DNA from: an uncultured virus (IMG/VR IMGVR_UViG_3300033550_000001)
Lineage: Duplodnaviria; Heunggongvirae; Uroviricota; Caudoviricetes
Length of the DNA: 64,000 nt
IMG/VR virus record: IMGVR_UViG_3300033550_000001
Reading direction: 5' to 3' (one strand)
In this document: positions 12,656-16,665 of the stretch, in pieces
How positions within the stretch are numbered: position 1 is the first letter of the stretch
Layout of the letters: every line of letters starts with the position of its first letter
Program-made: the position numbers and the translations under genes
Notes under the pieces: generated by a model
Seen by the model: the letters and a program-made list of their open reading frames with translations, nothing else
The model's database searches: none
What the model was told of the DNA's origin: nothing

Positions 12656-13908
<1,253 letters not shown>

Positions 13909-14011
13909 ACTCGCCGCCGTCTGCATTGCACCACCGAGGCCCGCACCGACACCCCCGTCCGGTGCGGGCCTCGTCGTGCTCCGGAAACCGCGCGCCGCCC
14001 GGCAGCCGACA

Positions 14012-16216
14012 ATGGCGGGCATGGCGGACACGAGGCTGAGGAGCCGCGCGGCGGAGAAGCTGCTCATGCACGCGCGGACGCTGACGGAGCCGCGCTGGAC
14101 TCCGCTGCCCCACCAGGTCCCGCCGCCCGGCGACTGGTACGGATGGCTGCTGCTGGCCGGGCGAGGCGCCGGGAAGACCGACGCGTGCGCGCGGTACGTC
14201 CACGAGCACGTCATGGGCCCGCCGTGCCTGCCCGGTCCCATCCCGCACTGGATCGGGATCATCGCGCCCACCCTCGGCGACGCGGCGACGTCCTGCTACG
14301 CCGGCCCGTCCGGCCTGCGGGTGCACAGCCCCGAGGCGAAGATGACGACCCGCCAGGGCGGCACGATCATCAAGTGGCCCAACGGTAGCGAGGCCAAGGT
14401 GTTCGGCGCGCACAGCCCGGAGGACATCGAGCGCCTGCGGTCCGGCGGTAACCGGTGCGTGGCCGAGGGCACCCTGGTGCGCACCGAGTACGGAGAGAGA
14501 CCCATCGAGACCATCCGGCCCGGGGACCGCGTGTGGACGCGCAACGGCCTGCGAGAGGTTCTGGCGGCCTGGGACAACGGCATCAAGGACGTCGTGCGCT
14601 ACGACCACGACGCGGGGTCCACGTGGCTCACGCCGGATCACAAGGTGGCGACGGCCGACGGCTGGAAGCCGGTTTCGCTCGTTCAGCCAACGGAGACAAT
14701 CTTTACATGGGGAAATACGGGGATTCGATACGGTACGACGGCGTCACCTGGCATGCAGGCCCGGACGACTACTACCGGAGCACGCGGCACGGACTGCTGC
14801 ACCGGTACATGTACGCGCGGGAGGTCGGTCCGATCCCCGCAGGCATGCAAGTGCACCACCGCAACCACAACAAGCGGGACAACCGGGTCAGCAACTTCGT
14901 GCTGCTCGCGCCGGGCCAGCATTGGCACGAGCACGGCGAGGAGCGCGGAGAGGACTGGCACCGTAAGGGCGGCCGGGCAACCTGGGACCGCGCGGAATAC
15001 CGGGACTTCACCTGTCAGCGGTGCGGCGCAGTCTTCCGCTCCCGAGGGACGACCGGAGCGCGGTACTGCCCCGGAGCCTGCCGGGAGGCTGTTGCTCCGT
15101 CACGAGCACGGGAGCAGCGGGTGTGCGGCGTGTGCGGCGACGCGTTCGAGTGCCAGCGCCGGAACCCGACCCGCACTTGTTCGCGCCGGTGCACTTCGGT
15201 CCTCGCGTACCAGTCGCGCCGTGCGCGTGTACGACCTGACGATTGAACACGATCACGAGTTCTTCGCGGGCGGCCTGCTCGTCTCCAACTGCCTTGCGTG
15301 GCTGGAGGAGCTGGCCGCGTGGCGCTACCTGGACGACACCTGGGACCAGATGCGGTTCGGCCTACGCGTCGGCCCACGCCCGCACTGGATCGCCTCCACC
15401 ACCCCCAAGCCCCGGGCCCTGATCAAGAAACTCGCGGCCGGCGGTGTGGGCAACGTCGTGCGCACGCACGCGTCCATGTACGACAACCCCCACCTGCCCG
15501 AAGACATCCGGGCCGCGCTGGAGGACGCCTATGCGGGCACGCAGATCGGTCGGCAGGAACTCCACGCGGAGATCATCGACGCCGACGAGAACGCGCTGTG
15601 GAACCGCGCGATGATCGACGACCACCGGGTGCGCCCGAGCGACCTGCCCGACCTCGCACGGATCTCCGTCGGGGTGGACCCGTCGGGCGGCCGGGGCGAA
15701 CAGGGCATCGTCGTCGTCGGCAAGGCGGTGCAGGAGCACGTGCGGGCCGACGGCCGCCCGACGCAGCTCGCGCACGGCTACGTCCTCGCCGACAGGTCGT
15801 GCCACCTCTCCCCGGACGGCTGGGGCCGCCGCGCGGTGCAGGCCGCCGTCGACCACGAGGCGGACGACATCTGCGTGGAGGTCAACTTCGGCGGGGACAT
15901 GGCCGTCAACACGATCCGCGCGGCGGCCGACGCCCTGGGCGTGCGCATCCCCATCAAGGTCGTGCGGGCGACGAGGGGGAAGAAGGTCCGCGCGGAGCCG
16001 GTCAGCGCCCTTTCGGAGCAGGGCCGGTGGCACATGGTGGGGGAGCACCCGGAGCTGGAAGACCAGATGTGCACCTGGTACGACGAGCTGGACTGGAGTC
16101 CGGACCGTCTGGACGCGATGGTCTGGCCGGCCTGGCACCAGCGGATCGTGAAGGCGACCATGACCGGCATTGCCGTGGCCGGCGGTCTGTCCTCGGCGAC
16201 ACGCTCCATCGGGTGA
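14012..16216 (+). CDS. terL: Terminase large subunit containing an intein (alternative start 14021)
   Basis: Walker A AGRGAGKT, Walker B LAWLEE, ASTTPKP, nuclease GVDPS and SPDRLDA. Confidence 0.93.
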   Translation: MAGMADTRLRSRAAEKLLMHARTLTEPRWTPLPHQVPPPGDWYGWLLLAGRGAGKTDACARYVHEHVMGPPCLPGPIPHWIGIIAPTLGDAATSCYAGPSGLRVHSPEAKMTTRQGGTIIKWPNGSEAKVFGAHSPEDIERLRSGGNRCVAEGTLVRTEYGERPIETIRPGDRVWTRNGLREVLAAWDNGIKDVVRYDHDAGSTWLTPDHKVATADGWKPVSLVQPTETIFTWGNTGIRYGTTASPGMQARTTTTGARGTDCCTGTCTRGRSVRSPQACKCTTATTTSGTTGSATSCCSRRASIGTSTARSAERTGTVRAAGQPGTARNTGTSPVSGAAQSSAPEGRPERGTAPEPAGRLLLRHEHGSSGCAACAATRSSASAGTRPALVRAGALRSSRTSRAVRVYDLTIEHDHEFFAGGLLVSNCLAWLEELAAWRYLDDTWDQMRFGLRVGPRPHWIASTTPKPRALIKKLAAGGVGNVVRTHASMYDNPHLPEDIRAALEDAYAGTQIGRQELHAEIIDADENALWNRAMIDDHRVRPSDLPDLARISVGVDPSGGRGEQGIVVVGKAVQEHVRADGRPTQLAHGYVLADRSCHLSPDGWGRRAVQAAVDHEADDICVEVNFGGDMAVNTIRAAADALGVRIPIKVVRATRGKKVRAEPVSALSEQGRWHMVGEHPELEDQMCTWYDELDWSPDRLDAMVWPAWHQRIVKATMTGIAVAGGLSSATRSIG
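14456..15289 (+). mobile_element. Intein (278 aa) in TerL just before Walker B
   Basis: Block A CVAEGTLV, block B LTPDHKV, block F VYDLTIEHDHEFFAGG, block G LLVSN followed by Cys +1. Confidence 0.92.
14707..15246 (+). CDS. HNH homing endonuclease with Zn-finger C-terminus, nested out of frame in the intein
   Basis: GGAG SD at 14692; LHRYMY..GPIPAGMQVHHRNHNKRDNRVSNF..H; CQRC, CPGAC, CGVC, CSRRC. Confidence 0.88.
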   Translation: MGKYGDSIRYDGVTWHAGPDDYYRSTRHGLLHRYMYAREVGPIPAGMQVHHRNHNKRDNRVSNFVLLAPGQHWHEHGEERGEDWHRKGGRATWDRAEYRDFTCQRCGAVFRSRGTTGARYCPGACREAVAPSRAREQRVCGVCGDAFECQRRNPTRTCSRRCTSVLAYQSRRARVRPDD

Positions 16217-16299
16217 CCAGGCTTCGCCGTTGCCCGAGATGGTGAATCGGGGGATCTGCCCTACCCTGCCCCGGGATTGATCCCCTCAAGGAGGCAGTC

Positions 16300-16665
16300 A
16301 TGGGCAAGGTCTACGGGCGAGAGCCGGCGGTATGGCTGGCGGCCGTCGGCGCGGTGTGGCAGATCCTGAGCGCCTTCGGCTTCGGGTTCGACGCGCAGCT
16401 CCAGTCCATCATCACGGCCGTCGTCGCGGCCGTCCTCGGCGTCATCGTCGCCGTGCAGGTGGGTGACGGCATCATCGCCGCCGTCAACGGTCTCGTGGTG
16501 GCAGGGGTGTCACTGGTGAGCTACTTCGCGTTCGAGTGGAGCGCGGAGGACCAGGCGAAGGTCGTGGGCGCGGTCATGCTGCTCGTCGCGTGGTTCGTCA
16601 CCCGGCCGAACGTGGCCGCGCCGCAGCCCGCAGCCGTCTCACCGTCCGGCCGTCTCGTCGCTTGA
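16300..16665 (+). CDS. Membrane protein, holin-like (about 4 TM)
   Basis: AAGGAGG SD; GREPA N-terminus; hydrophobic helices. Confidence 0.7.
   Translation: MGKVYGREPAVWLAAVGAVWQILSAFGFGFDAQLQSIITAVVAAVLGVIVAVQVGDGIIAAVNGLVVAGVSLVSYFAFEWSAEDQAKVVGAVMLLVAWFVTRPNVAAPQPAAVSPSGRLVA

What the first reader, a model, noticed from the sequence alone, without database searches (positions are those of the whole stretch)
14456..15289. Terminase intein with its homing endonuclease encoded in a different reading frame
Seen: the intein splicing blocks are in the TerL frame, but the ~180 aa between blocks B and F are Thr/Gly/Ser/Ala-rich, as expected for an off-frame read. The -1 frame over 14707-15246 encodes a clear HNH plus Zn-finger protein with its own GGAG SD, ATG and normal codon usage, and stops inside block F. 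Both frames stay open for 540 nt. Canonical inteins carry the endonuclease in frame, usually LAGLIDADG. Inference: a free-standing HNH gene invaded a mini-intein and is translated separately, while splicing removes the off-frame polypeptide from TerL. Similar architectures may already be reported in actinophages, so a literature check is needed.
Basis: partly seen in the sequence, partly recalled or inferred. Interest (0 to 1): 0.82.

Follow-up and report, generated by a model that had tools for sequence, protein, structure and literature searches.

The report
Terminase intein with overprinted HNH gene
A soil phage's DNA-packaging gene carries a self-splicing protein insert (an intein) whose middle also encodes, one base out of step, a complete HNH nuclease gene that probably spreads the insert; the layout is real and kept by selection, but layouts of this kind are already published.

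Summary
The terL gene (14012-16216) holds a 278-aa class-1 intein (14456-15289) just before the Walker B motif. Intein-less relatives have the exact empty site RSGGNR|CL.WLEE. A 179-aa HNH_3 protein with two Zn ribbons (14707-15246) lies in the -1 frame.

In the terL frame this stretch is a linker that is 73% T/G/S/A/R and is predicted to be disordered. The layout is not an assembly error. All 24 related viral and metagenome loci that carry a close HNH relative share it. So do three GenBank phages at another terL site, one of them at 39% GC.

Purifying selection switches from the terL frame to the HNH frame inside the overlap. Presence of the intein is patchy among close relatives: 2 full, 1 decayed and 6 empty. 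That pattern fits a homing element.

The kind is already in print: brucellaphage terL (2015 paper, GenBank annotation) and preprints of 2025 and 2026. This scan has also noted it 12 times on other DNA. I file it as a new member of a known kind. Splicing, HNH expression and cleavage are inferred, not shown.

The parts
14012..16216 (+). terL precursor CDS (Terminase_6 type). The start at ATG 14012 is putative (alternative ATG 14021).
   Evidence: ORF 13769-16216. Pfam Terminase_6N E 2.2e-10 and Terminase_6C E 3.9e-9. Alignment to mu1/6 TerL. Motif coordinates.
14156..14179 (+). Walker A / P-loop (AGRGAGKT) of TerL
   Evidence: Read from the sequence. The motif name is recalled.
14456..15289 (+). 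Class-1 intein, 278 aa: Cys1 ... Asn278, followed by the +1 Cys
   Evidence: Exact gap against intein-less TerL. Pfam Hint_2 E 2.1e-9. HINT fold of the ends.
14456..14710 (+). N-terminal splicing subdomain: block A Cys1, block B LTPDH at 14627-14641, ending in F-T-W
   Evidence: pLDDT 85-91 for residues 1-87. Invariant C1, T59, D61, H62 and W85 in 10 loci. pN/pS 0.42 in the terL frame.
14692..14695 (+). GGAG, SD-like, 11 nt upstream of the HNH ATG
   Evidence: Sequence. Not conserved in most relatives.
14707..15246 (+). HNH endonuclease gene, 179 aa, in the -1 frame relative to terL. The ATG is formed by the terL codons ACA-TGG (T-W); the TGA lies inside block F.
   Evidence: Pfam HNH_3 E 3.4e-13. 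35 homologs of 49-91% identity and 172-192 aa. AF2 pLDDT 83.2. I-HmuI Z 8.1. pN/pS 0.56 in this frame against 1.07 in the terL frame.
14731..14946 (+). HNH catalytic module (residues 9-80), I-HmuI-like; family-invariant H51, N59, N63, H72 and H76 are all present
   Evidence: VIA-align: 1u3e Z 8.1, rmsd 2.6, 72 residues aligned. Invariant columns.
15013..15192 (+). Two CxxC-x14-CxxxC zinc-ribbon-like modules of the HNH protein (C103/C106/C121/C125 and C140/C143/C158/C162)
   Evidence: Cysteines invariant in 36 sequences. Coordinates. Weak fold matches to the YacG and FCS zinc fingers.
14717..15169 (+). terL-frame read-through linker (intein residues 88-238), the off-frame translation of the HNH gene
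   Evidence: pLDDT below 50 throughout. 73% T/G/S/A/R. pN/pS 1.07. No stop codon.
15170..15289 (+). C-terminal splicing subdomain: block F VYDLTIEHDHEFFA at 15227-15268, block G LLVSN at 15275-15289. The penultimate residue is Ser, not His.
   Evidence: pLDDT 85-89 for residues 250-279. pN/pS 0.14. Invariant V258, D260, L261, E264, H267, E268, F269 and N278.
15290..15310 (+). +1 Cys followed by the Walker B-like LAWLEE; the intein sits immediately upstream of it
   Evidence: Sequence. The empty site is ...SGGNR|C[LTA]xW[LAM]EE in 6 intein-less relatives. The Walker B assignment is recalled from the hhhhDE pattern.

Best explanation
This is a composite selfish element in the large-terminase gene of a soil phage with high G+C. 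The host is probably an actinobacterium. The element has two parts.

(1) A class-1 intein sits directly before the Walker B motif of TerL. Ribosomes read the whole 278-aa intein in the terL frame. Its two ends fold into a HINT splicing domain. The 150 residues between them are a featureless flexible linker. Protein splicing removes all of it and restores TerL.

(2) A 179-aa HNH endonuclease gene is overprinted in the -1 frame of the linker DNA. The protein has an I-HmuI-like catalytic module and two zinc ribbons. It is translated on its own from an ATG built into the intein's Thr-Trp codons, and it ends inside block F.

The free HNH protein most likely nicks or cuts intein-less terL alleles during co-infection. 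Repair then copies intein plus HNH into the empty site (homing).

Shown here: the anatomy, its conservation, the frame-specific selection and the patchy distribution. Inferred: splicing, separate translation, cleavage of the empty site.
For: Anatomy:
- The empty-site junction is exact in mu1/6 and in 6 close relatives.

Conservation of the layout:
- Of 13 viral loci returned, 11 carry an HNH of 42-100% identity, and 11 of 11 have it in the -1 frame of an open terL+intein ORF.
- 13 of 13 metagenome loci do the same. Some duplicate viral loci; there are about 17 distinct alleles in all.
- TJE1, Highwayman and LS06 have the same -1 register at another terL site. The intein N-domain's only GenBank phage relatives are largely these same records.

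Selection (10 loci, 45 pairs):
- In the overlap, diversity by HNH codon position is 0.343/0.316/0.485.
- pN/pS is 0.56 in the HNH frame and 1.07 in the terL frame. In the flanks the terL frame gives 0.14-0.49.
- Window against L008: 18 of 179 residues changed in the HNH frame and 37 of 178 in the terL frame.

Open frame:
- The terL frame has 0 stops in 13 of 13 loci; the third frame has 1-25 stops in each.
- The Met-[ITNKM] dipeptide would force a TGA in the terL frame. It occurs 0 times at 124 Met in the 36 close homologs, where 19.5 are expected.
- In 150 wider-family representatives it occurs near expectation (73 observed, 87.8 expected), and it occurs in 3 of 4 free-standing controls.

Folds:
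- Intein ends pLDDT 85-91, linker below 50. The ends match mini-inteins (Mtu RecA E 1.2e-6; Ssp DnaB TM 0.81).
- HNH pLDDT 83.2. I-HmuI Z 8.1, next hit 4.7.

Mobility:
- 9 close terL relatives: 2 full, 1 decayed (catalytic half of the HNH deleted), 6 empty.
- The extein tree needs at least 3-4 changes of intein state.
- The HNH family is absent from 5 of 5 records of intein-less relatives (4 of them complete). It is present exactly once in 4 of 4 intein-bearing records.

Start codon: ATG or GTG at the homologous place in 13 of 13 loci; it overlaps a TGG codon in 12 of 13.
Against: - No direct evidence of splicing, of the 179-aa protein, or of cleavage.
- The penultimate intein residue is Ser, not the usual His.
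- An SD-like motif before the HNH start is seen only in a subset of loci. No sigma-70-type promoter was found in 13900-16400. How the HNH is initiated is therefore open.
- pS is near saturation (about 0.57-0.65), so the pN/pS values are rough.
- The loci are related, so the counts are not independent events.
- The rows of the extein tree came from two different searches (HNH-based and extein-based). That biases the mix of intein-bearing and empty alleles.
- The divergence of the intein between the window and L008 (85% aa identity) is like that of the C-extein (85%). For that pair, vertical descent with losses is as good an explanation as transfer.
Confidence: 0.85

Rival explanations
1. Assembly artefact: two compensating indels hide an ordinary intein with an in-frame HNH domain.
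For: This is a metagenome-derived record, and high-GC DNA keeps off-frames open easily (1113 of 3000 shuffles).
Against: The same two-frame layout occurs in 11 of 11 viral and 13 of 13 metagenome loci, down to 29% HNH identity. It also occurs in sequenced isolates TJE1 and Highwayman. Contigs of other runs match with 0 differences over 14699-15450 (X10) and over 14617-14939 and 15234-15384 (X11, not flagged as the source). The 'longer' protein search found no in-frame fusion: its 1 hit was an off-frame upstream extension.
Confidence: 0.01
2. The HNH is not a homing enzyme but a packaging helper of the terminase (the HNH-terminase partnership of cos phages), lodged inside terL.
For: Free-standing full-length relatives lie between terL and the portal gene in 4 of 4 phages inspected. 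The brucellaphage paper raised this idea for its nested HNH (passages of PMC4422536). Xu and Gupta discuss a packaging role for zinc-ribbon HNH nicking enzymes (passages of PMC3592412).
Against: 5 of 5 intein-less relatives with 79-88% identical C-exteins have no member of this HNH family anywhere in their records; 4 of these records are complete genomes (positive control). One relative keeps a shortened intein whose HNH has lost the catalytic half. The phage therefore does not need the gene.
Confidence: 0.07
3. The HNH is made by -1 ribosomal frameshifting out of the terL frame, as an N-extein/N-intein/HNH fusion, and not by internal initiation.
For: A heptamer of slippery shape, G_GGA_AAT, lies at 14710-14716, exactly where the frames meet. 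No conserved SD was found.
Against: The heptamer is present only in the window and L008 and not in the other loci. An ATG or GTG is conserved at the homologous place in 13 of 13 loci. Gene callers found 35 stand-alone homologs of 172-192 aa.
Confidence: 0.04
4. Different origin: the layout arose from a canonical intein with an in-frame HNH domain that slipped out of frame, not from invasion of a mini-intein by a free-standing HNH gene.
For: A related HNH (30% identity over residues 22-92) is in frame in a DNA polymerase intein of a low-GC phage (L018/L019). In-frame HNH inteins are known (Gosselin preprint, section 8).
Against: Only the catalytic part is shared with the in-frame form. Free-standing phage genes match over 79-94% of the length, zinc ribbons included (SN1 33%, PAE1 31%, vB_EauM-23 26%). 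The ORF has its own start and stop in all loci. None of this fixes the direction of events.
Confidence: 0.25

Closest known systems
Brucella phage Tb/Pr (Perisivirus) terL intein with a nested out-of-frame HNH gene (NC_019446; Virol J 2015, PMC4422536)
   Same: terL is annotated 'intein present', with a separate HNH CDS nested inside it in another frame. The intein sits directly before the Walker B-like hhhhDD (GNRAD|C...HN|CVIIDD). [quoted passage not shown]
   Different: The offset is +1, not -1. The HNH is 228 aa with its HNH motif near the C-terminus, and it is only marginally similar (hhalign probability 13%, 38 columns). The terminase lineage is different.
[quoted passage not shown]
   Same: Same design: same strand, other frame ('frame 3'), between the splicing blocks, many in terL. 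The in-frame read is unstructured. The authors propose invasion by a free-standing endonuclease gene (sections 8, 15 and 28 read).
   Different: Their nuclease is classed as endonuclease VII-like (IPR004211); this one is Pfam HNH_3. tblastn of this HNH against 50,697 phage records hit no actinophage other than Tetrasphaera phage TJE1, so the two are not detectably alike in sequence. Their supplements could not be read.
Cyanobacterial dnaX intein with an out-of-frame LAGLIDADG endonuclease (Phillips, DeSimone, Gogarten, bioRxiv 10.64898/2026.09.14.751524)
   Same: The splicing domain and the endonuclease are in overlapping frames. The in-frame region is disordered, selection is frame-dependent and the distribution is sporadic (passages read).
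   Different: A cellular gene, a LAGLIDADG enzyme and a different frame relation.
ShiLan-type out-of-frame HNH insertion in phage DNA methylase (Arsenault et al. 2025, PMC11855218)
   Same: The HNH gene is hidden in another frame of a host ORF that stays open. The question of how it is translated without an evident RBS is the same (abstract and section 4.3 read).
   Different: No intein splicing domain there; the read-through stays in the host protein.
I-HmuI, the HNH nicking homing endonuclease of a Bacillus phage SPO1 intron (PDB 1u3e)
   Same: Best structural match of the catalytic module: Z 8.1, rmsd 2.6, 72 residues, against 4.7 for the next entry.
   Different: 17% identity. I-HmuI is intron-encoded and has a helical/HTH C-terminal DNA-binding part where this protein has two zinc ribbons. 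That I-HmuI nicks and is SPO1 intron-encoded is recalled.
Canonical intein with an in-frame HNH domain (for example the DNA polymerase intein in L018/L019)
   Same: A related HNH core sits at the same slot between blocks B and F.
   Different: There one polypeptide carries both splicing and nuclease. Here they are two products from two frames.

Membership tests
Intein (class 1, HINT fold) | Nucleophile (Cys/Ser) at position 1 and Cys/Ser/Thr at +1 | tested here: met
   Cys1 at 14456 and Cys+1 at 15290. Both are invariant in 10 loci.
Intein (class 1, HINT fold) | Block B TxxH and C-terminal Asn (blocks F/G) | tested here: met
   LTPDH, with T59 and H62 invariant. VYDL..EHDHEFFA and terminal N278 are invariant. 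The penultimate His is replaced by Ser. This is not a defining feature; that some inteins splice without it is recalled.
Intein (class 1, HINT fold) | Precise insertion relative to intein-less homologs | tested here: met
   mu1/6 TerL reads RSGGNR|CLVWLEE. 6 empty-site relatives.
Intein (class 1, HINT fold) | HINT fold of the joined N and C parts | tested here: met
   AF2 residues 1-87 and 250-279 have pLDDT 85-91. Foldseek finds 33 PDB matches at E <= 0.001, led by mini-inteins. This is a prediction, not a structure.
Intein (class 1, HINT fold) | Protein splicing activity | not testable with these tools
   Inferred from purifying selection on the splicing blocks (pN/pS 0.14-0.42) and from TerL being essential.
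HNH (His-Me finger) endonuclease, Pfam HNH_3 | Profile match above the curated cut-off | tested here: met
   PF13392 at 49.4 bits against a cut-off of 24.8, E 3.4e-13.
HNH (His-Me finger) endonuclease, Pfam HNH_3 | Conserved His/Asn/His residues and the beta-beta-alpha fold | tested here: met
   H51, N59, N63, H72 and H76 are invariant in 36 sequences. I-HmuI Z 8.1.
Homing endonuclease (function) | Sits in a self-splicing element; sporadic presence with empty and decayed sites in close relatives | tested here: met
   2 full, 1 decayed and 6 empty among 9 relatives. At least 3-4 state changes on the extein tree. The HNH is absent from the intein-less genomes.
Homing endonuclease (function) | Cleaves or nicks the empty allele at or near the insertion site | not testable with these tools
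Empty-site DNA is listed.
Intein with an out-of-frame, same-strand homing endonuclease gene ('non-canonical architecture') | Endonuclease ORF between the splicing blocks, in another frame of the same strand, with the host frame open through it | tested here: met
Intein with an out-of-frame, same-strand homing endonuclease gene ('non-canonical architecture') | Selection acts on the endonuclease frame, not the host frame, inside the overlap | tested here: met
   pN/pS 0.56 against 1.07; the variable codon position shifts. GC3-type peak of 0.81 in the HNH frame.
Packaging-associated HNH of cos phages (HNH-terminase partnership) | Needed by, and kept in, phages that share the terminase type | tested here: not met
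   Absent from 5 of 5 records of close intein-less relatives, 4 of them complete; the control search was positive in 4 of 4.
Terminase large subunit, Terminase_6 type | [quoted passage not shown] | tested here: met
   PF03237 E 2.2e-10 and PF17289 E 3.9e-9.

The most novel reading that the evidence does not exclude
The overprinted layout is not a short-lived intermediate. It is an old, stable unit: one Hint domain plus one -1-frame HNH gene, with the start codon built into an xxA-TGG codon pair. This unit has moved between at least two terL sites and among phages of actinobacteria, proteobacteria and others while keeping its register. It may derive from the free-standing HNH genes that sit between terL and the portal gene. 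If so, out-of-frame coding would be favoured in itself, for example because it uncouples nuclease dosage from terminase dosage and leaves a small, fast-splicing intein.
Probability: 0.3. Interest if true: 0.5.

Novelty: new member of a known kind. Interest (0 to 1): 0.3.

Why it matters
The element shows two genes sharing about 540 bases in different frames, each under its own constraint. One frame needs only to stay open; the other needs a working enzyme. The data add three things to the published examples:

- A further nuclease lineage: HNH_3, I-HmuI-like, with two zinc ribbons.
- A protein-level signature of overprinting: no Met followed by I, T, N, K or M.
- Evidence that the same unit occurs outside actinophages, even in a genome of 39% GC.

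For annotation, a long terL ORF with a low-complexity middle should prompt a look at the other frames. For intein biology, the element supports the view that splicing domains and endonucleases join as separate genes. It changes no major picture, because the design is already described.

Tried and rejected
- Genome-contig scan with the single HNH protein: only two weak partial zinc-finger hits, of no use.
I repeated it with 3000 shuffles.
- Profile search of the PDB by sequence: only weak eukaryotic zinc-finger hits to the C-terminal part, not informative.
- Foldseek on the HNH model: no match at E <= 0.001. I-HmuI was first at E 0.037. VIA-align then gave Z 8.1.
- 'Longer' protein search for in-frame fusions: 1 hit among 686 candidates. 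It was an off-frame upstream extension of the HNH frame. This is weak evidence of absence.
- Promoter/terminator scan of 13900-16400: nothing found. The scan covers sigma-70-type sites only.
- Sequencing runs: no RNA holder listed, so nothing can be said on expression.
- Laying contigs: only X10 and X11 covered useful parts. X1 and X8 gave short pieces of other organisms. 14456-14611 was not covered by any laid contig.
- Frameshift heptamer at 14710-14716: rejected, because it is not conserved.
- Comparison with the brucellaphage HNH: only the HNH motif aligns, at probability 13%.
- Whether the endonuclease VII-like gene of Gosselin et al. is the same family could not be tested directly. Their phage records were not fetched and the bioRxiv supplements are closed. 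The indirect test is the lack of actinophage hits.
Full report
**1. What is there.**

The window comes from a 76.5-kb virus record. Its sequence is held by soil metagenome runs. The long ORF 13769-16216 is a Terminase_6-type large terminase: Terminase_6N E 2.2e-10 and Terminase_6C E 3.9e-9. A likely start is ATG 14012.

A 278-aa insert lies at 14456-15289. It begins with Cys (CVAEGTLVR) and ends in ...GGLLVSN, followed by Cys. Pfam finds Hint_2 at its first 35 residues (E 2.1e-9) and a weak Intein_splicing match at its end.

BLASTP against the intein-less TerL of Streptomyces phage mu1/6 joins ...ERLRSGGNR to CL(A/V)WLEE... exactly. The insert sits immediately before the Walker B-like LAWLEE; that motif name is recalled from the hhhhDE pattern.

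Between block B (LTPDH, 14627-14641) and block F (VYDLTIEHDHEFFA, 15227-15268) the terL frame reads a stretch that is 73% T/G/S/A/R and 7% hydrophobic.

The -1 frame holds an ORF from ATG 14707 to TGA 15244-15246 (179 aa). It matches Pfam HNH_3 (E 3.4e-13, 49.4 bits, cut-off 24.8). It carries two CxxC-x14-CxxxC modules. Its stop lies inside the block F codons.

**2. Is it more than chance, or an artefact?**

For this window alone the open terL frame is unremarkable. In 1113 of 3000 synonymous shuffles of the HNH ORF the terL frame stayed open, as expected at 69% GC. The comparative evidence is what decides the question.

- The HNH protein has 35 homologs of 49-91% identity, all called as 172-192-aa proteins.
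- A profile scan of viral contigs returned 13 loci. Eleven carry an HNH of 42-100% identity, and in 11 of 11 the HNH is in the -1 frame of an uninterrupted terL+intein ORF at the same site. L007 is a twin of the window, and L009 and L010 are identical.
- The other two loci (L018, L019; 30% identity over residues 22-92) have the HNH in frame, inside a DNA polymerase intein.
- A metagenome scan returned 13 loci, and 13 of 13 have zero stops in the terL-type frame across the HNH match. Several duplicate viral loci. Seven are new, down to 29% identity.
- Together this gives about 17 distinct alleles.
- tblastn against 50,697 GenBank phage records found full-length relatives (24-27% identity) under the annotated terL of Tetrasphaera phage TJE1, Acinetobacter phage Highwayman and Rhodobacteraceae phage LS06-2018-MD07.
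- In all three the HNH is again in the -1 frame of an intein. This intein sits near the C-terminal end of TerL, which is a different site.
- For Highwayman (HNH ORF 39% GC), 1 of 3000 shuffles kept the terL frame open.
- Over the 13 loci tested, the terL frame has 0 stops and the third frame has 1-25 stops in each.
- Contigs of other runs match the window with no difference over 14699-15450 (X10) and over 14617-14939 and 15234-15384 (X11, not flagged as the source). No laid contig covered 14456-14611.
- A search among longer proteins found no in-frame fusion. The single hit is an off-frame upstream extension.

The compensating-indel artefact is therefore excluded for practical purposes.

**3. 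Which frame is under selection?**

I used 10 loci and 45 pairs. In the overlap, diversity by HNH codon position is 0.343/0.316/0.485.

| Region and frame | pN/pS |
|---|---|
| Overlap, HNH frame | 0.56 |
| Overlap, terL frame | 1.07 |
| Overlap, third frame | 1.17 |
| N-terminal splicing part, terL frame | 0.42 |
| C-terminal splicing part, terL frame | 0.14 |
| Exteins, terL frame | 0.38 and 0.49 |

In the flanks the third position of the terL frame is the variable one.

For the closest pair (window and L008), the 53 differences in the overlap fall 12/5/36 by HNH codon position. They change 18 of 179 HNH residues but 37 of 178 terL-frame residues. pS is near saturation, so the ratios are rough.

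GC by codon position tells the same story. The GC3-type peak (0.81) is in the HNH frame, while the flanking terL parts have GC3 of 0.89-0.95.

There is also a protein-level signature. In this register, ATG followed by any A-starting codon makes TGA in the terL frame.

- Among the 36 close family members, 124 Met are followed by another residue. Met-[ITNKM] occurs 0 times against 19.5 expected. The Met positions are few and inherited, so this is not 124 independent trials.
- In 150 representatives of the wider family it occurs near expectation: 10 against 13.5, 26 against 30.6 and 37 against 43.7.
- It occurs in 3 of 4 free-standing phage relatives. All four of those have stops in that frame.

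**4. Folds.**

AlphaFold2 on the 10-sequence intein alignment gives pLDDT 85-91 for residues 1-87 and 250-279, and below 50 for all of 88-238. Foldseek matches the model to mini-inteins: Mtu RecA E 1.2e-6; Ssp DnaB 1mi8 at target TM 0.81. There are 33 matches at E <= 0.001.

The HNH model (36 sequences) has mean pLDDT 83.2. Foldseek gave no match at E <= 0.001, with I-HmuI first at E 0.037. VIA-align gave I-HmuI at Z 8.1, rmsd 2.6, 72 residues aligned (model 9-80), well above the next entry, I-PpoI at Z 4.7. The C-terminal part gave weak zinc-finger matches (YacG Z 4.5).

The family-invariant H51, N59, N63, H72, H76 and all eight cysteines are present in the window's copy.

**5. Mobility.**

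A scan with the C-extein alone found 9 close relatives of 79-100% identity.

- Two carry the full intein (the window's twin, and L040 = L005/L008).
- One (L038) has a 208-aa intein. Its -1 ORF has lost the catalytic half of the HNH and keeps the zinc-ribbon half.
- Six have the empty site ...SGGNR|C....

I built a maximum-likelihood tree of the exteins from these 9 rows plus 6 more distant intein-bearing loci. On it the intein state needs 4 changes, and well-supported branches force at least 3. For example, L011 (full) is sister to L043 (empty) at 98/96 support. The rows came from two searches of different design, so the proportions are biased.

The HNH family profile finds nothing in the records of 5 of 5 intein-less relatives, 4 of which are complete. 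It finds exactly one match, in terL, in 4 of 4 intein-bearing records.

The phage therefore does not need the gene. That argues against a packaging role and for a selfish one.

**6. How it most likely works.**

- The terL mRNA is read through in frame.
- The two ends of the intein fold into a HINT domain, joined by a flexible 150-residue loop.
- Splicing removes all of it.
- The HNH is translated separately. An ATG or GTG is present at the homologous place in 13 of 13 loci. In 12 of 13 it overlaps a TGG codon (mostly ACA-TGG, Thr-Trp), including TJE1 and LS06 at the other terL site.
- An SD-like motif is seen in the window (GGAG, spacer 11) and in a subset of loci (L016, LS06, Highwayman), but not in most.
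- No sigma-70-type promoter was found, so the mode of initiation is open. Arsenault et al. discuss the same problem for hidden HNH genes (section 4.3 read).
- The free enzyme would nick or cut empty terL alleles and be copied in by repair.

Splicing, expression and cleavage are inferences. The penultimate intein residue is Ser, not His. That some inteins splice without this His, and that endonuclease domains can be replaced by linkers, is recalled knowledge.

**7. Origin.**

Full-length free-standing relatives exist: SN1 at 33% identity over 93% of the query, and PAE1, vB_EauM-23 and Shemara at 26-31%. They lie between terL and the portal gene in 4 of 4 phages inspected.

The intein N-domain has 5 tblastn hits in GenBank phages. 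Four are records that also carry the -1 HNH: LS06, TJE1 (two records), and MT838676. For MT838676 the -1 register is judged by coordinates only. The fifth is a Thermus phage ribonucleotide reductase.

This fits a composite that formed from a terL-adjacent free-standing gene and then moved as a unit. The direction is not shown, and a frameshifted in-frame HNH intein remains possible.

**8. What is known.**

- The design is in print. [quoted passage not shown]
- The RefSeq record of Brucella phage Tb annotates terL 'intein present' with a nested HNH CDS.
- That intein also sits just before a Walker B-like motif. Its HNH is at +1 offset and barely similar (hhalign probability 13%).
- Gosselin et al. 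[quoted passage not shown] Their supplements could not be read.
- Phillips et al. (bioRxiv 2026, passages read) show the same for the cyanobacterial dnaX intein with a LAGLIDADG enzyme.
- Kelley et al. 2016 (passages read) map terL intein sites, including Walker B, and show splicing of terL inteins in a reporter.
- This scan has noted the layout 12 times in at least 11 other genomes. Those notes led me to open the brucellaphage paper, which my own search had already listed.

**9. Verdict.**

The feature is real, selectively maintained and well resolved, but it is a new member of a known kind.

What may be new in detail:
- this nuclease lineage (HNH_3, I-HmuI-like, two zinc ribbons);
- the conserved -1 register with the start codon inside the Thr-Trp codons;
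- its presence at two terL sites and in a low-GC phage;
- the Met-dipeptide signature.

I searched the paper library three times. None of the passages I read describes this lineage, but I cannot claim it is absent from print.

Noticed in passing
L016:729-4019: This terL has two inteins: the Walker B-site intein with the -1 HNH, and a second, long insert in the P-loop (GGRG|CVAPW...NHN|TGKSD). The middle of the second insert was not examined.
   Followed up: no
L051, L052, L053, L054 (phages SN1, PAE1, vB_EauM-23, Shemara): Free-standing full-length relatives of the HNH (196-205 aa) lie between terL and the portal gene in 4 of 4 phages inspected. This suggests a terL-associated family of free-standing homing or nicking genes.
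   Followed up: partly
L038:upstream of 2601 (also L050): A close relative has a shortened 208-aa intein. Its -1 ORF has lost the catalytic half of the HNH and keeps the zinc-ribbon half, which looks like a decaying stage of the homing cycle.
   Followed up: partly
L018 and L019:1202-3292: A low-GC phage DNA polymerase I gene holds an intein with a related HNH (30% identity over residues 22-92) in frame. There the shared EWHAKGG motif is followed by a helical region where this protein has zinc ribbons.
   Followed up: no
window 14710-14716: The heptamer G_GGA_AAT has the shape of a -1 slippery site and lies exactly at the start of the HNH frame. It is present only in the window and L008, so it is probably a by-product of Met-Gly-Lys.
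   Followed up: yes
alignment A1 (36 HNH proteins): Met is never followed by I, T, N, K or M (0 of 124, against 19.5 expected). This is a protein-level footprint of -1 overprinting. It could be used to spot embedded family members without their DNA.
   Followed up: yes
window 12668-13711 and 13705-13908: Upstream of terL, judged by eye only: an ORF with a signal-peptide-like start, an Rpf/transglycosylase-like motif (CESGGNW), an NlpC/P60-like part and a LysM-like end; then a small CxxC...C protein. Neither was tested.
   Followed up: no
L034-L036: A more distant variant at the same terL site (29% identity) has a 228-aa -1 HNH with additional cysteine pairs. Its terL frame has 0 stops while the third frame has 24.
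   Followed up: partly
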